DNA of 64,000 nt from an uncultured Bacillota bacterium (GTDB lineage: Bacteria > Bacillota > DTU025 > MWDF01), in contig CAWGMK010000010.1 in assembly GCA_963823655.1 (NCBI GenBank), positions 256,001-320,000 on the forward strand, read 5' to 3'. The notes beneath the pieces are model-generated. The model worked only from the letters and a program-made list of their open reading frames with translations. It did no database searches and was not told the origin of the DNA. How positions within the stretch are numbered: the first letter of the stretch is position 1; the number at the start of each line of letters is the position of its first letter. The position numbers and the translations under genes are program-made. Of this stretch, positions 27,530 to 34,734 are shown piece by piece.

Positions 27530-28781
27530 TAGTTATACCCCCAAGCTTTGCCATGTCTGCAAAGAAAGCCGGATAGGACTTCTTTACGCATTGGGCGTTA
27601 ATAATTCCCGTGTTTCCGACCCTGGATCCTCCTATGGCTGCGCTCATTGCCAGGCGGTGATCGTTTTGCGAATCGATGACATTGCCTCCGCGCATAGTCA
27701 CCTCCGAAAATCCTAAGGGTATCATCTGCGTATTCAGATCTTACGGAAAACCCTGCCAGCATCTTCATTATGCCCTCAAGCCTGTTGGACTCCTTGAAGC
27801 TGAGCCTATCTACGCCTCGCATGATGGATACGCCTTTCGCCGTTGCCATGGCTATCGAAAGTATAGGAGCGAGGTCCGGGAAGTTTTCGATGTTCAAGTC
27901 AATAGGCTCAAGCGCGCTCTCGTTGAAGGTGATGGAGCCATTTGAAAATGTGATTTCAGCTTTCATATCCCGCAAGATGTCAATAATCGCCCTATCGCTC
28001 TGACGCGAGTCCAAGTTGAGCCCCTTTAGAGTTACACAGCCATTAATCGCCCCTGCTACAGCGAAATTTGCAGCCCCGCTGAAATCTCCCTCCACAAGAA
28101 GGCTCCCGGGCGTTTTGAATTCCTGATTTCCTTCTAAGTGATAGAATATTGCCTTCCCGCACGACATTAACGGAAAATAGGCTGAGCATAGACAGCGTAA
28201 GATCTATATAGCCCTCCGACACAATGCCATTCTGGATGGAGATTGTGCTATCACCGTCAAGCAGAGGAAGCGCTAGATAGCAATCCCGTAACATACTGAG
28301 AACTGATAGAACCGTCCACTTCGTATGCCCCGCTGCGAAGCTTTCCGCTCATACAAAGTGGGAGCCTGTCACTGTCTGCCTTGACACCATGGGCCCTCAA
28401 GGCTTCAAGAAGTCCTGAAATTGGCCGCGAAGAAAGCTGGCCTTCACCAATGAACTCAACGTCCAACCCCAGTGCTGCAACTACCGGGATCAGGAAACGA
28501 AGGGTAGAGCCGCTCTCCTTAGCATTAAGCCTAAGATTGTTCTTGCGCGTAATTATCGGATTGACGATAATGCCCTCTTCACATGGTATAAACAAAGCAC
28601 CCATCTCACTAAGCGCTGACATTGTGGCTTCAACATCGCTGCCTACAATGTTCCCATGAAGGTGGGTTGGCCCTTTTGACAATGCGGATGCAATTAATGC
28701 TCGGTGAGCGACAGATTTTGAAATCGGTGCGAACAATTCGCCCGAAAGCTTCGACCTCTCAACGGATTCAATCATCAGCAT
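27513..28781 (-). CDS. aroA: EPSP synthase, frameshifted
   Basis: SKSVAHRA, ESGSTLRF, SSQY, PDLAP, KESNRL, NDHRLAM, KSYPAF. Confidence 0.93.
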
Positions 28782-28971
28782 ATTCTGCGAGCTCCCCCCA
28801 TGTCGTTTCTTGATGGTGCATTAGGCTAATCCATTGATGACAATAAAATCCCCTTTGCCCTCAGTCTTTAATGAAACTGGATGCACTTGTATCCCTGCAG
28901 ATAGGATCCCAACCGAAAACTTCGTTGAGCGGGCTTTAGGCATAGACAGTAATTTTAACAACCTTTCCCAT
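28768..28971 (-). pseudogene. aroB: Probable internally deleted 3-dehydroquinate synthase remnant
   Basis: About 200 bp between tyrA and aroA, where aroB sits in the clostridial operon; starts MGKVVKITV and ends with AroB C-terminus-like KTEGKGDFIVING..CTIKK..WGELAEY with stops. Confidence 0.5.
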
Positions 28972-29813
28972 CCTTCGCAGTTCTATCAGCCACTTCTTTC
29001 ATCCTCACGCCTTCTGTCAGCAATTGATTCAGCAGGACCGCATCGTTGTTCACGAGCGCCAGTTTAATATCAGCAATGTTCTTTTCGAGAGCGTCAATCT
29101 GAAGGAGCACATTATCGCGATTCTCCAAGAGCAGCTCCGTCCATGTCCTAGGATTGAGCCTCGCCACCCTGGTCATATCCTGAAAACTCCCTGCCGAGAA
29201 TCCCAAATGATCCTCAGAAAGTGGATTTCTGATATAACTCATGGAAACGACGTGAACAATTTGGGAAGTGTATGCTATCATCTCGTCATGCTTCTCAGCC
29301 GTTGCGATCCGGATGCCCTTACAACCAATCTCGCGCAGCAGTGATATTATCCTGTCCAATGCTGGATGCGAAGTTTTGACAGGTGTGACGATGGCGTAGG
29401 TGCCTTCGAATAATGATGCTGCCGAATTCGATATCCCGCATGATTTCCCTTCCAGCCATGGGGTGCACGCCAGCAAACTCAAGGTTTGGGTATCTCTCAC
29501 GCAGTGACTCCATACATCTGATTACCCTTCGTTTAGTCCCGCAGCTGTCGATGATTACTGCTCCATCCTTTAGCTTGGGTGCCGCCTTTTCCATTTCGGA
29601 TATGGCATCAGATGGACTAAGGGCGAAAATCGCCAAATCGACATCTTTCAGGTTCTCATCCGTTATCTCATCATCAATCGCCTTCAAAAGTCTCGCATCG
29701 ATCACGGTTTGCGGGTCTATGTCGCGCCCAAGAACCTTGTGCGGCGTCTTTTCCAGTATTGCCCTTCCAAATGACCCCCCAATAAGCCCCAAACCATATA
29801 TGGCGATTACCAT
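28955..29813 (-). CDS. tyrA: Prephenate dehydrogenase, frameshifted
   Basis: GLGLIGGS, GTK, HPMAG, HDEMIAYTSQ..H, GSFQDMTRVA. Confidence 0.92.
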
Positions 29814-29825
29814 GAATATCTCTCC

Positions 29826-30257
29826 TTATACGCAGTAGGTTGCATAATGCCGAGGAATCTCGCGATATCTTATGACTGCTAAGCTTAAGTGACTTTGCCA
29901 ATCGTTTAATGATTTGGTCCGGTCGTTGTTAGCCTCGGTCATGTGCCTGTCTGCACTAGCTCCTATTTATCTGAGACTGCGCCCTTAGAAATTCTGGTCG
30001 TAAACATCGATTGCCGAATTTAGCGAATGGAATTTGGCATGTGCATTAATATTGGGATCTTGGTTTTTATTTATCGACTCCACTATTTCGAATGAGTGTA
30101 AACGGTTCATGTCGATGCTTGCCGTGTCTCCGATGAGGCCAATAAGCGTGGAATTATCGCTCTCGCTCATATGGACACCTAGGCCTTGATCTTCTATCCA
30201 TCTTAAAAGGTCACTGATCTTGTTCCTGCCATGAGTCTTCCTAATGCTTATAACCAT
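29826..30257 (-). pseudogene. aroF: Internally deleted DAHP synthase (type I-beta) remnant
   Basis: N-terminal ferredoxin-like regulatory domain (GLGVHMS...TLIGLIGD...FH) joined to a degenerate C-terminal motif (ASADRHMTEANNDRTKSLND, cf. GADGLMIEVHNDP..ALSD); catalytic barrel absent. Confidence 0.75.
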
Positions 30258-30573
30258 AGCTTGCTTCGCCTCTTTCTTTAAATAATGATTCCTCATTAAG
30301 AGCTTATTGCCCCTTGTTATCAACCGTTGATTGCGTTTCTCTATTTCAATAAGCGTGCGAACATACATCCCTTTTTGGAAGGGATGTGATGCAGCATCTC
30401 TGCCTTTATGGTTGGGCCTTTCATCGTGGGGGAAAAGGTCGATCTTGTGAACCACTTTGCAATTGTTTATGTCGACCCGAATAGGTCTACTGTCACTAAA
30501 TCTGAAATTCCATTAGTACATCATCCCCCTTAATGTAGGGTAGCGGGACGAGATTTCACTCGAAGGCAGAAAT

Positions 30574-30840: not shown

Positions 30841-30966
30841 TGTCATGGTGTAAACTCATCAGGGAAAGTGTCATCCTCAAGAACGATCTGCAATGAGAGG
30901 ATGAGATACGAAATGAGCAAGCAGGACGCCCGCAAGGTCACAATCATAGAGAAGCTTTTGGCATAG
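30841..30966 (+). mobile_element. Possible IS left-end scar with truncated transposase N-terminus
   Basis: TGT start, repeated TGTCAT, RBS then MRYEMSKQDARKVTIIEKLLA*, resembling ISNCY/IS481-type HTH starts. Confidence 0.35.
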
Positions 30967-31005: not shown

Positions 31006-32082
31006 CTATATTGTTGGGACAATCATTGTGATGTTGCGTTCGCCTATCAAGTAGATACGCTCCTGCGATTTTCTTAACGCTATCGGCCCTTTCAACCAGC
31101 TTGCCTGGTAATTCTCTATAGTATTTAGCTCTTCGTCAAGTATTACCAAGCCACCATCTACCGGTATCAAATATGTTGGCCCATCTGCTATAGGGCGTCC
31201 AACAATTCTGAATGATGAAATAATCCTTTTTAGGATTTGGCCCTTATCTATGTCAATGAGAGAAAGCGTAATCCCGTCCTTTGCCACTGCCAGGGCTTTG
31301 TCGGCGTATCCCACAACAAGGTATTCAGGAGGCTCCATAATGAGCCGCCATTCATAGAAAGGCATATCCTGATTGCTCCATTTGATTATCCCTATGTATT
31401 TGTCTAATACTAGGATGCTTTTGGGTCCAAGCACTTCTACATCTGTGAAACCGATACCTATCTTTTCTAGCTGCCTGGTTGTGGATCCGTCATTCATATC
31501 GACAATGTTGAGGTATTCTATTCCCTCCGTTAGGCCGGTATCAGCCGAGTTGTAGGAAACCTTCCCTATGACTATGCAACTGCCGTTAACCAGGTAATCG
31601 AGGGACCATACAGGCCCCGCATATTCTACAAATCAGCAGTTGGGCGGTTTGAAGTACTCCCAGGCAAGGCTTCCGTCCAGGTTAAGTGCAAACAGGCCGT
31701 GGTCCCATCCTACGAGCAGGATGCCATCCATTACCGTCAACGCATGAACAATGTCATAGGCATCGATCTGCCATTTCAACTTCCCATCTTTTGAAAGCCC
31801 GGCAACGGTATTCCCGAAAGCCATGTAAATATCTCCGAACAAATCTGTTGCCAGAAGGTATATGGGTTCGCTGGATTTCCAAGACCACCTGACATGCCCA
31901 TACTTATCGAAAACCACAGCTTGATTTCCTGCCGAAATGACAATCCCTCCGTCTGGCATTAATTCAGACGAGGTTATGCCTTCGACTTCTACCGACCATA
32001 TCTGGTCAACTTTATCGAAAGAAAGGGCAGGGGCTGCACAAATGAATAGGAAAAGTACGGCGGATGCCAACATCCTTCGCAT
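31006..32082 (-). CDS. Secreted PQQ/BamB-like beta-propeller protein with in-frame TGA at codon 150 (candidate selenocysteine)
   Basis: ORFs 31633..32082 and 31006..31497 share a frame with 45 open codons between them; DGKLKW and DGSLAW propeller repeats; signal peptide. Confidence 0.65.
31602..31618 (-). promoter_or_regulatory. SECIS-like hairpin
   Basis: GGGGCC-TGTAT-GGTCCC; apical loop begins 20 nt after the TGA and has GT at loop positions 2-3. Confidence 0.5.
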
Positions 32083-32513
32083 TTTATCCCCTCCGAATTG
32101 GCCATTACGAATGTTCTTATGAACAACTATACTGCGTTCAGAATTACTATGCTAAGAATGTGAGCAGCAGCGGCAACAGCGATAAGGAATGTTTCGAACC
32201 CGTCGGTTCATAGGAGAACAACAACGATCCAGCTCCGATGCTTATTGGGACTTCTTCCGGCTCAAGCCCATTTCTGCAACGATGCCAAGTTCATACAAAG
32301 CGAACTAATGAATACCTAACAAACAAGGTGAGCCGATGCAGCTTGTCTCGGCTCACCTTAGTGAATTCATTCTTTCTCCTCAACCTTGTTAGATCGGGCA
32401 CACCATTATTCCAATTCTACTAATGTCTCGTGATCCGACGTCTCCTGCTTTATTCAGGCATGCAAAGTCATGAATTTTGGCCAAAACTTGATTTCCTCTT
32501 ACGCCAATAGAGA

Positions 32514-34734
32514 TCACGTAGCCAAATCCTCTTCCAGATTATCAAGGACCTTATGTAGAGTCAGCGTATCCATATCGTATCTGGGCAGGCAGTAATGACA
32601 CCCGTTATAGCCGCTGTCCCTGATCAGATCCGCCACCTCGCCAAGGTTCTTGCAGAACGACTTGTTGCCCGCTGACATAAGAGATGCCCAATGGCAATCA
32701 AGTCTATGTATCTCCTTGGAGTGGAGGTTGGCCACATGCCAATGAGGATTGAACCTGTAGAGGTATCGCAAGGTTACCTTTGACTTATCAGCGTTAAGCG
32801 CAGTAACCCGGAATGCGATATATCCTGCTGTCTCCCCTTCTTGGGCCATCGATACATAAGTGTGGCCGACAACCGCGGCTACCCCAAAGCGGGTAAATCC
32901 AGAAGCCGGGATGTTCACAGCGGCCAAGTCGGTGCTGCCAATATCCCCCAAGTCTGTGACTCCCTTTTGCTTCAGGTTGTTAGCCCAGAATTTGCCCTGG
33001 TAATAGTAAAGATCGCCTCCTGTAATATTACCCAAGGTATTTGTAGAGAAGTCGAAGCTGTCCTCGCTATCAAAAACCACTTGGAGCAGGGAGTGAGCGT
33101 GGAAAGCCTGCTGGATATCATTGAAATACGGAAAGCCGTTCAGCAGATTGTTATCGATATCGGCAGCTTTGTAAAGGGCTGTTAGCAGGTTGCTTTCGTG
33201 CGGATCGGAGAAGTAGTAGTCTCTGGGGAAAGCCGAGAGTATCTGGTGAGCCTCCAGTATTAGCTGGTCTGCGATTCGCGCCCCCAGTGCTCCATGGTTG
33301 TTGATCAGCCGCTGCCTGAAGTCCCAGGCCGCCCCGCTGATTATCATCCCGCCGGTATGCCCCTCGCTGTTGTAACTGCTCCTGCCGGGATACTGATTGG
33401 TGTTTTGAAGATTCCTTGGAGTGAAACAGCCCTCACCAAGCCTGGAATCGTTGGTGAAACTGCACGCGAAGTAGTCCGCAAAGCCCTCGTCCATGGCGTA
33501 AGCTTCCGTATATGCGTCCGGCCAGCCGATATAGTCGCCGTATTCATGGCACAAAATGTTATGCGTGCATTCGTGGTAAATCACGTCGCTGCTCCTGGCG
33601 AAGTTATTTGTGCCGAAAGTCATGGGATTGCCGGCATAAGCGTTGGAGAAGGCGTAGTTGACCTTCACATTGAAGCGATTGGTCCCGTCAAGGTTCGCCC
33701 ATAAATAGCCGAGTTCGGTTTCCAGCCAGTCATGGTATAGGTTCATATGGTAGAAGAGGTTAATATGATCCCTGTCTGCGGCAGTCCAGGTCATGTCGCA
33801 GGGGTTGTCGGTATTACAGTCCCTGGTTGCTATGTAATCCGTGCCATCGCTGTTTTGGACCCTTGCATAAGGGCCTTCCAGTTTGAAGGTGGCATGATGA
33901 ATGGGAAACAGCCACCAGTACCAGGGGACGTTACGGGAATATGCGCCAGAGTGGTTAGTGTTGGCATTTCCCGCGAATTCGACATCTACGATCTCATGGC
34001 GCAAAGGCACAGTACTTAGCGCATCTGTCGGATTTGCTGGATATATCTCGCCTCTGACCGTGCCGGTTACCTGTACACCCGGAAACCTTGCGGTGTAAGA
34101 CCGGAGGATCTTGCCATCGATTGCGTCAATGATAAAATACTTCTCAATCTCGGGGTCGGTCTGCTCTTTTGCGAGCAGAAATTTCCAAGCCAGATGATGT
34201 ACTGATCGTGCCTTCTGCTGTCACCGGGAAAATCAGCAGGATGCTCTCACTCTCGCTCAATTTCTGAGAATCACCCTTCGGATAGGTCTTTTTTGCAATA
34301 TCGACGGCTTTTTTCAGGTCAACCTTCGGATCTGTTGTAATTTTGATTCCGGGCAGGTAATTTGATGCGAATGAGCTAACCTTGCCGTCTTCCGCAGTTT
34401 CCAGGCTAACGACGGCGTTGTATACAGGAATGCCCTTATAAGTCTGCCCGTATTTAACGAACCACTTCCTGTTGATGTTTTTCGCGGACACAAGCTGCAA
34501 ATCTTTGCTTTCAACTTCGAAAAGCTTCTTGTTTTCACTTATAAACTTCTTAAAAACCGACTCGATGTTCGCTTCTAGTAACGGGATCGTGCCTTTCTTC
34601 AAAACGCTTGGATAAGCGTCAATCCCAGAAATGCGGTCGGGTATTTTAGTAAGCCGGCTTCTTGTTATCTGGGCGCTGGCGGCAAAGCTCTTGCCTGTTC
34701 TCTGTGCCTTTTCCTCCCCTTTGTTAATATTCAT
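32514..34734 (-). CDS. M4/M36-type zinc metallopeptidase with FTP-like propeptide and C-terminal Cys/His domain, frameshifted near 34050-34190
   Basis: YGQTYKGIPV propeptide, NAYA, HECTH (HEXXH), EGFADY, EGH..G; C-terminal HRLDC...GCHYC. Confidence 0.8.

What the first reader, a model, noticed from the sequence alone, without database searches (positions are those of the whole stretch)
31006..32082. Candidate novel secreted selenoprotein: beta-propeller with Cys-Sec (CU) motif and SECIS-like hairpin
Seen: two ORFs listed separately are in one frame, separated only by TGA at 31633-31635 in ...WEYFKPPNC-TGA-FVEYAGPVWSLDY..., followed by 45 open codons with no well-spaced RBS/start. Read-through gives a 358-aa protein with a signal peptide, a plausible size for a full propeller, whereas 149 aa holds only a few blades. 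A GGGGCC-TGTAT-GGTCCC hairpin has its loop 20 nt after the TGA with G-U in the loop. Known: the bacterial SECIS consensus puts a G among the first two loop bases 16-37 nt after UGA, and vicinal Cys-Sec is a redox motif (mammalian TrxR). Inference: an extracytoplasmic redox- or metal-binding propeller selenoprotein, a family I do not recognise. Caveat: the assembly is error-prone, although most of its errors are indels.
Basis: partly seen in the sequence, partly recalled or inferred. Interest (0 to 1): 0.85.

Follow-up and report, generated by a model that had tools for sequence, protein, structure and literature searches.

The report
New beta-propeller selenoprotein family
The two neighbouring ORFs are one gene for an exported propeller-shaped protein whose internal TGA is read as selenocysteine, and it belongs to a small, apparently undescribed selenoprotein family that public annotation cuts in two.

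Summary
On the minus strand, 32082..31006 is one frame of 358 codons, broken only by TGA at 31633-31635, in the context PPNC-TGA-FVEYAGPVW.

The interpretation as a selenoprotein is strongly supported:
- The gene has 27 homologous loci in 8 genomes of one uncultured Bacillota class. All 27 carry a single TGA at the same aligned position, in a C-U or C-x-x-U motif.
- The same hairpin, GGRCC-NGUNN-GGYYC, starts 14 nt after the TGA in all 27 loci and meets the published bacterial SECIS criteria.
- Synonymous sites inside the stem are frozen, while those in the loop vary.
- The same hairpin at the same spacing follows the TGA of a known selenoprotein type (FmdB zinc ribbon) in this genome. There it lies beyond the stop codon.
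- dN/dS downstream of the TGA is 0.07-0.24.
- The genome has tRNA-Sec, selD, selA and selB, and it uses TGA as an ordinary stop elsewhere.

Both halves match PQQ-like/BamB-like 40-residue blades, and nearly all members start with a signal peptide. No Cys-form homolog was found. No Pfam or NCBIfam selenoprotein model covers the family, and a 2026 catalogue of 119 families does not list it.

The function is inferred only: a periplasmic Cys-Sec redox or metal-binding centre.

The parts
31006..32082 (-). Complete selenoprotein CDS: 358 codons (ATG 32082-32080, Sec-TGA codon 150, stop TAG 31008-31006).
   Evidence: The full length aligns to 26 homologous loci in one frame.
31633..31635 (-). In-frame UGA (codon 150) read as selenocysteine. 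It directly follows the invariant Cys149, giving a C-U motif.
   Evidence: TGA is at the aligned column in 27 of 27 loci. No listed difference in contigs of runs X1, X4, X5.
31602..31618 (-). bSECIS hairpin GGGGCC-UGUAU-GGUCCC: 6-bp stem and 5-nt loop (31608-31612) with G then U at loop positions 2-3. It also encodes the conserved peptide GPVWS.
32020..32082 (-). Signal-peptide-like N-terminus MRRMLASAVLFLFICAAPALS. The cleavage site after ALS is inferred.
   Evidence: hydrophobic stretch with mean Kyte-Doolittle 2.74, two Arg before it. No signal-peptide predictor was available.
31636..32019 (-). N-terminal half (residues 22-149): about three 40-residue PQQ-like propeller blades.
31009..31632 (-). 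C-terminal half (residues 151-358): further PQQ-like/BamB-like blades. Public annotation calls it as a separate 'hypothetical protein'.
   Evidence: Within-species variants are 15 synonymous to 8 non-synonymous.
32088..32094 (-). Shine-Dalgarno-like GGAGGGG, 5 nt upstream of the ATG.
   Evidence: Read directly.
32126..32155 (-). Sigma-70-like promoter match (TTAGCA-18-TATAGT, 9 of 12). A consensus match only.
30915..30931 (-). Terminator-like hairpin plus T-rich tail downstream of the stop codon. A consensus match only.

Best explanation
Window 32082..31006 (minus strand) is a single gene for a selenoprotein.

Shown or strongly supported:
- During translation, UGA150 is decoded as selenocysteine. 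SelB carrying Sec-tRNA(Sec) binds the small GC-rich hairpin that starts 14 nt downstream and has G-U in its apical loop.
- The product is a protein of about 335 residues after signal-peptide removal, built of 40-residue PQQ-like/BamB-like blades (7-8 blades by length).
- Either half alone would be an incomplete propeller.

Inferred:
- The genome encodes an Omp85/BamA homolog, so the protein is most likely periplasmic.
- The only invariant reactive residues in the family are the Cys and the Sec, arranged as C-U or C-x-x-U. In several paralogs they are the only Cys/Sec of the mature protein.
- They sit in the loop between the last strand of blade 3 and the innermost strand of blade 4. By general propeller topology, that is the mouth of the central channel.
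- My preferred mechanism is a Cys-Sec selenenylsulfide/selenol-thiol redox couple acting on a substrate held by the propeller face. My odds for redox over metal or metalloid binding are about 0.4 to 0.25.

The confidence given below is for the core claim: a real Sec-containing propeller protein of a previously uncatalogued family.
For: 1. Conserved recoding site. 27 of 27 family loci in 8 genomes have TGA at the aligned column, 9 as C-U and 18 as C-x-x-U, at 19-37% protein identity to the window protein.
2. Translation continues. One frame aligns across the TGA in every full-length hit. In 9 ortholog pairs, dN/dS downstream is 0.07-0.24 against 0.09-0.24 upstream, with dS 0.7-1.9. Within-species variants downstream are 15 synonymous to 8 non-synonymous.
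3. SECIS pairing. In 24 aligned members, 97.9% of stem cells pair. The closing pair is GC 12, AU 4, UA 3, GU 2. The loop G is invariant and the next U is present in 23 of 24.
4. SECIS criteria. All four constraints quoted in PMC13188914 section 5 are met.
5. RNA-level selection. In the stem, Gly is GGG 19 / GGA 5 and never GGC or GGT, which make up 64% of Gly codons genome-wide. Ser is TCC in 19 of 19 and Arg is only AGG or CGG. Third positions in the loop vary.
6. Independent control for the hairpin. The hairpin core occurs 9 times in the 2.3-Mb genome and 8 of these have TGA exactly 15 nt upstream. Seven are family copies. The eighth is an FmdB-family zinc-ribbon gene (TIGR02605, 52 bits), a catalogued selenoprotein type, where the hairpin lies after the stop codon.
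7. Pattern specificity. Over 21 genomes of the order the pattern hits 33 sites against 3 for the reversed control, and 27 of the 33 are the family.
8. Sec machinery. tRNA-Sec scores 76 bits with anticodon TCA. selD carries its own TGA in AGUAAK followed by a similar hairpin. selA and selB sit in the same cluster. selB is intact in 5 relatives.
9. TGA is otherwise a stop. It terminates 981 of 2403 ORFs of at least 200 codons, with the same extension statistics as TAA and TAG. TGA-ended orthologs finish at the same aligned end as TAA- or TAG-ended ones.
10. Fold. PQQ_2 matches 18 of 19 members. The N-half profile hits designed and natural PQQ-like propellers at E 1e-50 to 1e-25. The C-half profile hits BamB at E 1e-7. 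The two halves are homologous to each other (hhalign 77%, E 2e-5).
11. Export. N-terminal hydrophobic signal-like segments and Omp85 in the genome.
Against: - No Cys-form homolog was found. This is the usual hallmark of selenoprotein families (passages in PMC12013277 and PMC13188914). Among the best 150 of 30,549 hits in 1.84 billion representatives there were 1 full-length protein, 11 C-terminal halves, 5 N-terminal halves and 133 long repeat proteins matching only the N-half.
- That one full-length protein (P0008) and its cluster mate (P0153) have Trp at the Sec position. Their DNA was not obtainable.
- The window hairpin alone is not thermodynamically unusual (z -0.94).
- Hairpin conservation is partly confounded with the coding of GPV[RW]S.
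- selB is frame-split in this assembly.
- The window protein itself scores 25.9 bits on PQQ_2, below the 27.6 cut-off.
- No structure model was obtained, and no RNA or protein evidence.
- Gene neighbourhoods differ between paralog clades and do not point to a function.
Confidence: 0.85

Rival explanations
1. It is the same Sec-containing propeller, but the Cys-Sec pair is a two-ligand binding site for a soft metal or metalloid (Hg, Cu(I), As and the like) rather than a redox couple. The protein would act in periplasmic sequestration, sensing or delivery.
For: - In the 2026 catalogue, most families with a C-U motif are predicted metal or organometallic proteins: CopZ-like form 2, MerB-like SaoL, HgcA, SaoC, MbdU. 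Sec as a metal ligand is discussed there.
- Only two invariant reactive residues exist.
- A ferritin-like gene lies just downstream in one locus scanned (L045). ORFs of the same size and position occur in two orthologous loci but were not scanned.
- Clades B and E sit beside a DUF6305 plus DctM-like transporter pair.
Against: - No metal-resistance genes are conserved next to the family.
- Most members (18 of 27) have C-x-x-U, the motif the catalogue links to redox functions.
- There are no His, Asp or Met ligands among the invariant columns.
- Nothing was tested directly.
Confidence: 0.25
2. The TGA is a true stop. Two separate genes encode a 149-residue exported protein and a protein of about 200 residues started downstream, as public annotation has it.
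For: - Gene callers split the locus everywhere: 11 C-terminal and 5 N-terminal halves among the listed representatives.
- In some homologs an NTG codon lies 2-10 codons after the TGA.
Against: - In the window the first start is 45 codons downstream, yet those codons are conserved (70% identity to P0002 and P0003) and evolve mainly synonymously.
- The junction is always the same TGA, never TAA or TAG, in 27 of 27 loci and always in frame.
- SECIS and Sec machinery are present.
- The C-terminal part would lack a signal peptide, and each half would be an incomplete propeller.
Confidence: 0.03
3. TGA is a sense codon (Trp, Gly or Cys) in this lineage, or is read through by a near-cognate tRNA without selenium.
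For: P0008 and P0153 are recorded with Trp at this position.
Against: - TGA ends 981 of 2403 long ORFs, with the same downstream statistics as TAA and TAG.
- Nine of 22 family genes themselves end at TGA, at the same aligned terminus as TAA- or TAG-ended orthologs.
- Every conserved Trp column is TGG. TGA occurs once per gene, except for a second one in the G000 C4 copy.
- A dedicated hairpin is conserved 14 nt after this TGA only.
Confidence: 0.02
4. It is an assembly error or a pseudogene in an indel-prone assembly.
For: This assembly splits EPSP synthase, prephenate dehydrogenase and selB, and several paralogs of this family are fragmented in it.
Against: - The TGA is found in 8 independent genome assemblies, 5 metagenome contigs and contigs of 3 further runs.
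- dN/dS is well below 1 on both sides of the TGA.
Confidence: 0.01

Closest known systems
Bacterial selenoproteins with CxxU or CU motifs decoded through an in-frame bSECIS (catalogue of 119 families/subfamilies, Zhang et al. 2026, PMC13188914 Table 1; read)
   Same: - Single in-frame UGA.
- Hairpin immediately downstream meeting the bSECIS model.
- CxxU or CU motif.
- Dependence on selA, selB, selC and selD.
   Different: - The fold is a PQQ-like beta-propeller. No entry of that table is a propeller or PQQ-like protein, and the words 'propeller' and 'PQQ' do not occur in the paper.
- No Cys-form homolog was found.
- There are 2-7 paralogs per genome.
- No NCBIfam model matched 5 members at E<=0.1 other than weak BamB-type hits.
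BamB (YfgL) and other PQQ-like beta-propeller repeat proteins (Pfam PF13360 PQQ_2; PDB 3hxj; designed Cake, Scone and Bagel propellers)
   Same: - 40-residue blade repeat with the DG...W signature.
- Overall size (about 335 residues mature) like 8-bladed BamB.
- Exported.
- Profile matches at E 1e-50 to 1e-7.
   Different: - TIGR03300 (BamB) scores only 25-31 bits against a cut-off of 285.
- There is no consistent lipobox.
- BamB has no Cys-Sec centre.
- Blade 4 carries an insertion holding the C-U or CxxU motif.
FmdB-family zinc-ribbon selenoprotein of the same genome (G000 C13:310916-311140; TIGR02605)
   Same: The same hairpin core, GGRCC-NGYNN-GGYYC, sits exactly 15 nt after its TGA. A Cys lies shortly before the Sec (C-T-P-T-U).
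   Different: It is an unrelated small cytoplasmic zinc-ribbon protein. Its Sec lies 5 codons from the C-terminus, so the hairpin is outside the coding region.
Vicinal Cys-Sec of mammalian thioredoxin reductase (C-terminal Gly-Cys-Sec-Gly) and the vicinal Cys-Cys disulfide ring of PQQ methanol dehydrogenase (both recalled, no call)
   Same: Adjacent Cys-Sec (or Cys-Cys) able to form an eight-membered selenenylsulfide or disulfide ring used in electron transfer. The dehydrogenase is also a PQQ-type propeller.
   Different: - There is no flavoprotein domain, and the motif is internal rather than C-terminal.
- There is no evidence of PQQ binding, and the protein is about half the size of quinoprotein dehydrogenases.
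- Two thirds of the family use C-x-x-U instead.

Membership tests
Bacterial selenoprotein gene (Sec-UGA plus bSECIS) | In-frame UGA conserved at the same position in homologs, with coding conservation continuing downstream in the same frame. | tested here: met
   27 of 27 loci have it. dN/dS downstream is 0.07-0.24 in 9 pairs.
Bacterial selenoprotein gene (Sec-UGA plus bSECIS) | The bSECIS model: apical loop of 3-9 nt, upper stem of 4-16 bp, G in the first two loop positions (N-G-[G|U]-N-N), 16-37 nt between UGA and the loop, and MFE <= -7.5 kcal/mol (PMC13188914 section 5). | tested here: met
   - Loop is NGUNN (5 nt; 3 nt if the 36-40 pair forms).
- Stem is 6-7 bp.
- 20 nt separate the UGA from the loop.
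- The window hairpin folds at -10.3 kcal/mol.
-.
- bSECISearch itself was not available.
Bacterial selenoprotein gene (Sec-UGA plus bSECIS) | The genome encodes tRNA-Sec, SelA, SelB and SelD. | tested here: met
   selB is frame-split in this assembly but lies in open frames of 641-733 aa in 5 relatives.
Bacterial selenoprotein gene (Sec-UGA plus bSECIS) | Existence of homologs with Cys in place of Sec (the usual Sec/Cys pair criterion). | tested here: not met
   - None among the 150 best hits of the profile search.
- None in 21 genomes of the class or 401 of the phylum.
- This criterion is customary, not defining.
Bacterial selenoprotein gene (Sec-UGA plus bSECIS) | Selenium actually incorporated at the UGA. 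| not testable with these tools
   This needs 75Se labelling or mass spectrometry.
PQQ-like / BamB-like beta-propeller repeat proteins (Pfam PF13360) | Match to the family profile above the curated cut-off. | tested here: inconclusive
   The window protein scores 25.9 bits against a cut-off of 27.6. 18 of 19 aligned members match at E<=0.01, best 1.6e-12. The family profile hits solved PQQ-like propellers at E 1e-50 to 1e-25.
PQQ-like / BamB-like beta-propeller repeat proteins (Pfam PF13360) | Closed 7- or 8-bladed propeller in three dimensions. | not tested
The blade count is inferred from 40-residue periodicity and length.
BamB (outer membrane protein assembly factor, TIGR03300) | Equivalog-level match and lipoprotein signal. 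| tested here: not met
   Scores are 25-31 bits against a cut-off of 285. There is no conserved lipobox Cys.
Thioredoxin-fold CxxU/UxxC oxidoreductases | Thioredoxin-like domain around the motif. | tested here: not met
   No Trx-like family appears in the Pfam or NCBIfam scans.
PQQ-dependent quinoprotein dehydrogenases | Propeller of about 600 residues with PQQ-binding residues and a vicinal disulfide. | tested here: not met
   There is only one weak local match to ADH-IIG (E 1.5e-6 over 65 residues), and the protein is about half the length. PQQ binding was not tested.

The most novel reading that the evidence does not exclude
This is the first beta-propeller selenoenzyme family, and it is obligately Sec-dependent, with no Cys forms anywhere. 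A periplasmic Cys-Sec (vicinal or CxxU) selenenylsulfide centre sits at the channel mouth of a PQQ-like propeller. The family has expanded to 2-7 paralogs per genome and makes up most of the selenoproteome of an uncultured diderm Bacillota class. It would carry out an extracytoplasmic redox chemistry, such as peroxide, polysulfide, disulfide or organo-chalcogen turnover, for which no Cys-based equivalent exists. Because its SECIS is translated, the RNA element dictates a conserved protein motif, GPV[RW]S, in the innermost strand of blade 4.
Probability: 0.3. Interest if true: 0.8.

Novelty: new member of a known kind. Interest (0 to 1): 0.68.

Why it matters
- It adds a selenoprotein family on a scaffold (beta-propeller) not represented among the 119 catalogued prokaryotic families. 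Most of those are thioredoxin-like.
- The family appears to have no Cys-containing homologs, so the standard Sec/Cys-pair searches cannot find it. Public annotation records it only as pairs of 'hypothetical proteins'. This is a concrete example of what homology-based selenoproteome surveys miss.
- In these genomes the family outnumbers the other selenoprotein genes I could find: 7 copies against SelD, a peroxiredoxin, a Prx-like protein and an FmdB-like protein. It may therefore be a main reason the lineage keeps the Sec machinery.
- It is a clean natural case of an RNA element constraining protein sequence. Synonymous sites are frozen in the stem and free in the loop.
- It shows a switch between C-U and C-x-x-U spacing inside one family.
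- The organisms are uncultured members of wastewater, sludge and sediment communities, so the chemistry involved may matter for anaerobic digesters.

Tried and rejected
Steps that gave nothing, or that I set aside:
No model or fold search exists, and the position of Sec in the fold is inferred from repeat register only.
- Retrieval of the DNA behind P0008 and P0153 (Trp at the Sec position) failed. The search for related loci in metagenome contigs found no relative. The pattern scan found 5 other contigs, all with TGA, but not that one. A search with P0008 found only itself and one distant half.
- The search for homologous proteins with P0001 and with A2 returned only two C-terminal halves.
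- The search for related loci with A2 was rejected for lack of a conserved stretch. The narrower A3 worked.
- Rfam gave only a chance-level lncRNA hit on the region.
- No RNA holder was listed among the sequencing runs, so nothing can be said on expression.
- Gene neighbourhoods gave no shared functional partner. The window copy sits between a metallopeptidase and an aromatic amino acid operon. Other CU-clade copies sit beside a NERD/UvrD helicase, TrkH, GNAT, lactate permease or ferritin. Clades B and E sit beside DUF6305, a DctM-like permease, a SurA_N-TPR protein or a C45-like protein.
- GrdA and GrdB were not found with these queries, and the controls were also silent, so this is not evidence of absence. 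The FdhA-like gene has no TGA.
- Five pattern hits outside the family were short out-of-frame ORFs.

Literature:
- I read sections 5 and 7 (parts 1-2) and searched passages of PMC13188914.
- I saw passages only of PMC12013277 and PMC9312934.
- Search listings only. None describes a propeller selenoprotein.
- PMC12013261 (Haft and Tolstoy 2025) is not held.
- Supplementary tables were not opened, and they may list unnamed candidate families (for example Table S2 of PMC12013277).

Rejected readings: two genes, a genome-wide code change, a pseudogene or assembly error (see the rival explanations).
Full report
**The observation**

The feature lies on the minus strand. ORF 31633..32082 (149 aa, ATG at 32082) and ORF 31006..31497 are in one frame. 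Reading the TGA at 31633-31635 through gives a 358-residue product ending at TAG 31006-31008. The local context is ...LAWEYFKPPNC-U-FVEYAGPVWSLDYLVNGSC....

- The first possible start after the TGA is 45 codons downstream.
- The hairpin GGGGCC-UGUAU-GGUCCC occupies 31618..31602. It starts 14 nt after the TGA, with 20 nt between the TGA and the loop.
- A GGAGGGG ribosome-binding motif precedes the ATG.

EPSP synthase (27598-28167 / 28257-28781), prephenate dehydrogenase (28955-29500 / 29319-29813) and selB are each split by frame changes.

**Is the TGA real and conserved?**

A six-frame search of the window's genome (G000: 2.3 Mb, 13 contigs, 97% complete) and 60 relatives found homologs in all 7 genomes of the genus and in one genome of another family of the same order. 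None were found in the other 53 genomes. A profile search of all 21 genomes of the order, which is also the whole class in this collection, gave the same picture.

- There are 27 loci: 7 in G000, 2-4 in each congener, and 1 in G007.
- Every locus that spans the site has a TGA at the same aligned column. Nine read C-U, as the window gene does. Eighteen read C-x-x-U (CDTU, CATU, CSTU, CFTU, CDFU, CDYU)..
- Protein identity to the window protein is only 19-37%.
- A maximum-likelihood tree shows deep paralog clades with branches of 0.9-1.7 changes per site. The C-U form makes one group (support 69/73) and C-x-x-U is found elsewhere, including in the most distant member. The tree is midpoint-rooted for drawing only.

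Other assemblies agree.

- A DNA pattern that left the third base of the critical codon free found 5 metagenome contigs, and all 5 have TGA.
- Contigs of three other sequencing runs that cover 31633-31635 list no difference there. The tool did not show 22 lesser differences.
- A cluster of four 149-residue proteins about 97% identical to the window's N-terminal half ends at the same Cys.

**Is the downstream part translated?**

- In every full-length hit, one frame aligns across the TGA.
- For 9 ortholog pairs, Nei-Gojobori dN/dS is 0.07-0.24 downstream of the TGA and 0.09-0.24 upstream, where it could be computed (8 of the 9 pairs). dS is 0.7-1.9.
- Of the 38 within-species differences listed inside the gene, 15 of 23 downstream and 11 of 15 upstream are synonymous in this frame.
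- The two closest database proteins (P0002 and P0003, 70% identity) begin two residues after the Sec position. They are C-terminal halves called from a fortuitous start.

**The recoding signal**

An ungapped alignment of 24 members from -12 to +60 around the TGA shows the hairpin in all of them.

- 97.9% of the cells of the 6-bp stem form standard pairs.
- The closing pair is GC 12, AU 4, UA 3, GU 2 and unpaired 3.
- The optional seventh pair is GC 6, UA 6, GU 4 and unpaired 8.
- The second loop base is G in 24 of 24, and the third is U in 23 of 24.
- Sliding the partners by one column drops pairing to 60-74%.

The review PMC13188914 (section 5, read) gives four constraints for the bacterial SECIS model. 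They are a loop of 3-9 nt, a stem of 4-16 bp, G in the first two loop positions in the pattern N-G-[G|U]-N-N, 16-37 nt between UGA and the loop, and MFE <= -7.5 kcal/mol. The hairpin meets all of them. The window hairpin folds at -10.3 kcal/mol.

The hairpin also encodes the conserved peptide G-P-V-[R/W]-S, so conservation alone could be protein-level. Two results argue for RNA-level selection.

1. Synonymous sites inside the stem are fixed. Gly is GGG 19 / GGA 5 and never GGC or GGT, which together make 64% of Gly codons in this genome. Ser is TCC in 19 of 19. Where Ser is replaced, the codon is TTC or CTC, which keeps the pairing. Arg is only AGG or CGG. Third positions that fall in the loop vary freely.
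2. The hairpin core GG[GA]CC-N-G[TC]-NN-GG[TC][TC]C occurs only 9 times in the whole genome, counting both strands, and 8 of those have TGA exactly 15 nt upstream. Seven are the family copies. The eighth (C13:311126) follows the TGA of an FmdB-family zinc-ribbon gene (TIGR02605, 52.3 bits against a cut-off of 31.3) whose tail reads ...SCTPT-U-GHSH-stop. There the hairpin lies beyond the stop codon and cannot be explained by coding. The FmdB family is listed as a selenoprotein family in Table 1 of the review.

Further checks:

- Over the 21 genomes of the order, the pattern TGA-N15-core hits 33 sites, against 3 for the reversed control. Twenty-seven are the family, one is the FmdB gene, and five are short out-of-frame ORFs.
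- The selD gene of this genome has its TGA in the expected AG-U-AAK context, followed 11 nt later by a similar GGGUCC-GGC-GGACCU hairpin.
- Against this, the window hairpin folded on its own is not better than shuffles (z -0.94; 31 of 200 shuffles fold as well).

**Machinery and genetic code**

- tRNA-Sec (76.3 bits; ARAGORN calls SeC with anticodon TCA), selD, selA and selB lie together on contig 6.
- selB is split by a frame change in this assembly. It lies in open frames of 641-733 residues in five relatives.
- SelA is found in 19 of 21 genomes of the class, and a strong tRNA-Sec (at least 72 bits) in 16 of 21. The Sec trait is therefore older and wider than the family.
- TGA is an ordinary stop. 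It ends 981 of 2403 stop-to-stop ORFs of at least 200 codons, and the in-frame extension behind it has the same length distribution as behind TAA and TAG.
- Nine of 22 family genes end at TGA, at the same aligned terminus as orthologs ending in TAA or TAG.
- All conserved Trp columns are TGG.

**What the protein is**

- Pfam PQQ_2 (BamB-type propeller repeat) matches 18 of 19 aligned members. The window protein itself scores 25.9 bits, just under the 27.6 cut-off.
- The family profile matches solved PQQ-like propellers with 40-residue blades over profile positions about 25-147. These include the designed Bagel, Cake and Scone proteins and the natural 3hxj, at E 1e-49 to 2e-25.
- A profile of the C-terminal halves alone matches BamB structures at E about 1e-7.
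- The two halves are homologous to each other (hhalign probability 77%, E 2e-5 over 101 columns).
- With about 335 mature residues, this fits a 7-8-bladed propeller, which neither half could close alone.
- It is not BamB. TIGR03300 scores 25-31 bits against a cut-off of 285.
- Eighteen of 19 full-length members start with a basic or short N-terminus followed by a hydrophobic stretch and an Ala-rich end. The exception has a start that my ORF rule truncated.
- The genome has an Omp85/BamA homolog (137 bits) and a weak, split CcdA/DsbD-like membrane protein. A periplasmic location with access to reducing power is therefore plausible but not shown.

In the 19-sequence alignment, the invariant columns are Gly, Trp, Pro and Val plus Cys149 and Sec150. 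In five of those members the motif Cys is the only Cys of the mature protein.

By repeat register, the motif replaces the short turn between the outermost strand of blade 3 (...W-E-Y) and the innermost strand of blade 4 (G-P-V-R-S...). In propellers generally that turn lies at the mouth of the central channel. This is established topology applied by inference, not a model.

**Mechanism**

- Shown: a conserved UGA, a SECIS and a propeller-repeat protein.
- Inferred: export to the periplasm, and a Cys-Sec pair that cycles between a selenenylsulfide and the reduced state, or that binds a soft metal.

I prefer redox (about 0.4) over metal binding (about 0.25). Two thirds of the family use C-x-x-U, the spacing the catalogue associates with redox proteins, and no other ligand residues are conserved. 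The C-U spacing of the window's clade, however, is typical of predicted metal and organometallic selenoproteins in the same catalogue. Gene neighbourhoods differ between clades and give no decisive hint.

**Comparison with what is known**

- The 2026 catalogue of 119 prokaryotic selenoprotein families and subfamilies contains no propeller or PQQ-like entry. The words 'propeller' and 'PQQ' do not occur in that paper.
- They also do not occur in the deep-Sep paper or the 2022 review.
- NCBIfam release 20 has no model for the family.
- NCBI records the C-terminal half as 'hypothetical protein [Bacillota bacterium]'.
- Three full-text searches listed no paper on a propeller selenoprotein (listings only).
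- Haft and Tolstoy 2025 is not held, and supplements were closed, so an unnamed candidate in those sources cannot be excluded.

The profile search of 1.84 billion representatives gave 30,549 hits at E<=0.001, of which the best 150 were listed.

| Type of hit among the best 150 | Count |
|---|---|
| Full-length protein | 1 |
| C-terminal halves | 11 |
| N-terminal halves | 5 |
| Long multi-repeat proteins matching only the N-half | 133 |

- Two of the long repeat proteins, when scanned, are ordinary PQQ_2/ACSF4-type propeller surface proteins.
- No Cys form appeared.
- Outside the class, a sample of 380 further genomes of the phylum gave only weak N-half matches, with no in-frame TGA, in 22 genomes.
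- A scan of 185,579 species genomes for two conserved peptides of the C-U clade returned only the six congeners.

**The one result against the reading**

The single full-length database protein (P0008, JGI, on a 1.8-kb contig) and its cluster mate P0153 have Trp at the Sec position. I could not obtain their DNA.

- One possibility is a gene call under a TGA=Trp table on a short contig. Another is a genuine TGG variant.
- I think the first more likely. That judgement rests on my recollection of how metagenome gene callers choose tables, not on a call.
- Either way it does not support a TGA=Trp code in these genomes, for the reasons given under machinery and genetic code.

**Verdict**

This is a real, previously uncatalogued selenoprotein family on a beta-propeller scaffold. 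It is confined, as far as searched, to one uncultured class of Bacillota-affiliated MAGs. Record titles name them 'Firmicutes bacterium ADurb.Bin153', 'Bacillota bacterium' and 'uncultured Clostridia bacterium'. Related contigs occur in wastewater, sludge and sediment metagenomes.

- Confidence in Sec decoding and propeller architecture: about 0.85.
- Confidence in any particular biochemical function: low.
- Novelty: a new member of a known kind. It has three unusual traits: no Cys forms, paralog expansion, and a translated SECIS that fixes a protein motif.

Noticed in passing
window 27598-28781, 28955-29813, 29985-30455 (minus strand): The aromatic amino acid operon downstream of the gene is broken by frame changes. 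EPSP synthase is in two ORFs, prephenate dehydrogenase is in two overlapping ORFs, and only the ferredoxin-like domain of DAHP synthase sits in an ORF. This fits an indel-prone (long-read type) assembly rather than pseudogenes.
   Followed up: partly
window 32514-34010 and 34144-34734 (minus strand): Just upstream lies a 498-residue protein with an HExxH motif and a weak fungalysin (M36) match. It is preceded by an ORF with an FTP propeptide motif. This is probably one secreted metallopeptidase precursor split by a frame change.
   Followed up: partly
G000 C13:310916-311158 (locus L008 2716-2958): This is an FmdB-family zinc-ribbon gene (TIGR02605) with an in-frame TGA five codons before its TAG stop (tail C-T-P-T-U-G-H-S-H). 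The same SECIS-type hairpin as in the propeller family lies beyond the stop codon.
   Followed up: yes
G000 C7:150900 and C10:146924 (minus strand): Two further likely selenoprotein genes are present. One is a peroxiredoxin (…FYPGDFTFV-U-ATE…). The other is a Prx-like or deiodinase-like protein (…GSFT-U-PPF…). Each has a hairpin 13 nt after the TGA with G-U in the loop.
   Followed up: partly
G000 C4:90477-91409 (locus L035): This paralog has a second in-frame TGA (…KLGVDG-U-LECAF…) at a column where relatives have Lys or Arg, and its C-terminus is truncated. This is either an assembly error or a decaying copy. Other G000 copies (C7a, C10b/c, C6) are also fragmented by frame changes.
   Followed up: partly
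loci L071, L074, L078, L080, L081, L084, L089: Two different paralog clades (B and E) sit divergently next to a conserved pair. The pair is a DUF6305 protein with a signal peptide and a polytopic DctM-like permease, possibly an uncharacterised two-part transporter. Between them lies a SurA_N plus TPR protein in clade B or a C45-like hydrolase in clade E.
   Followed up: partly
proteins P0008 and P0153 (JGI, contigs of 1839 and 1176 nt): These are full-length family members recorded with Trp at the selenocysteine position. This is either a gene call under a TGA=Trp table or a natural TGG variant. The DNA could not be retrieved.
   Followed up: partly
G000 C10:507750: There is an in-frame TGA inside a GMP-synthase-like gene (…[25 protein letters not shown]…) near the contig end. 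It is most likely a sequence error, not Sec.
   Followed up: no
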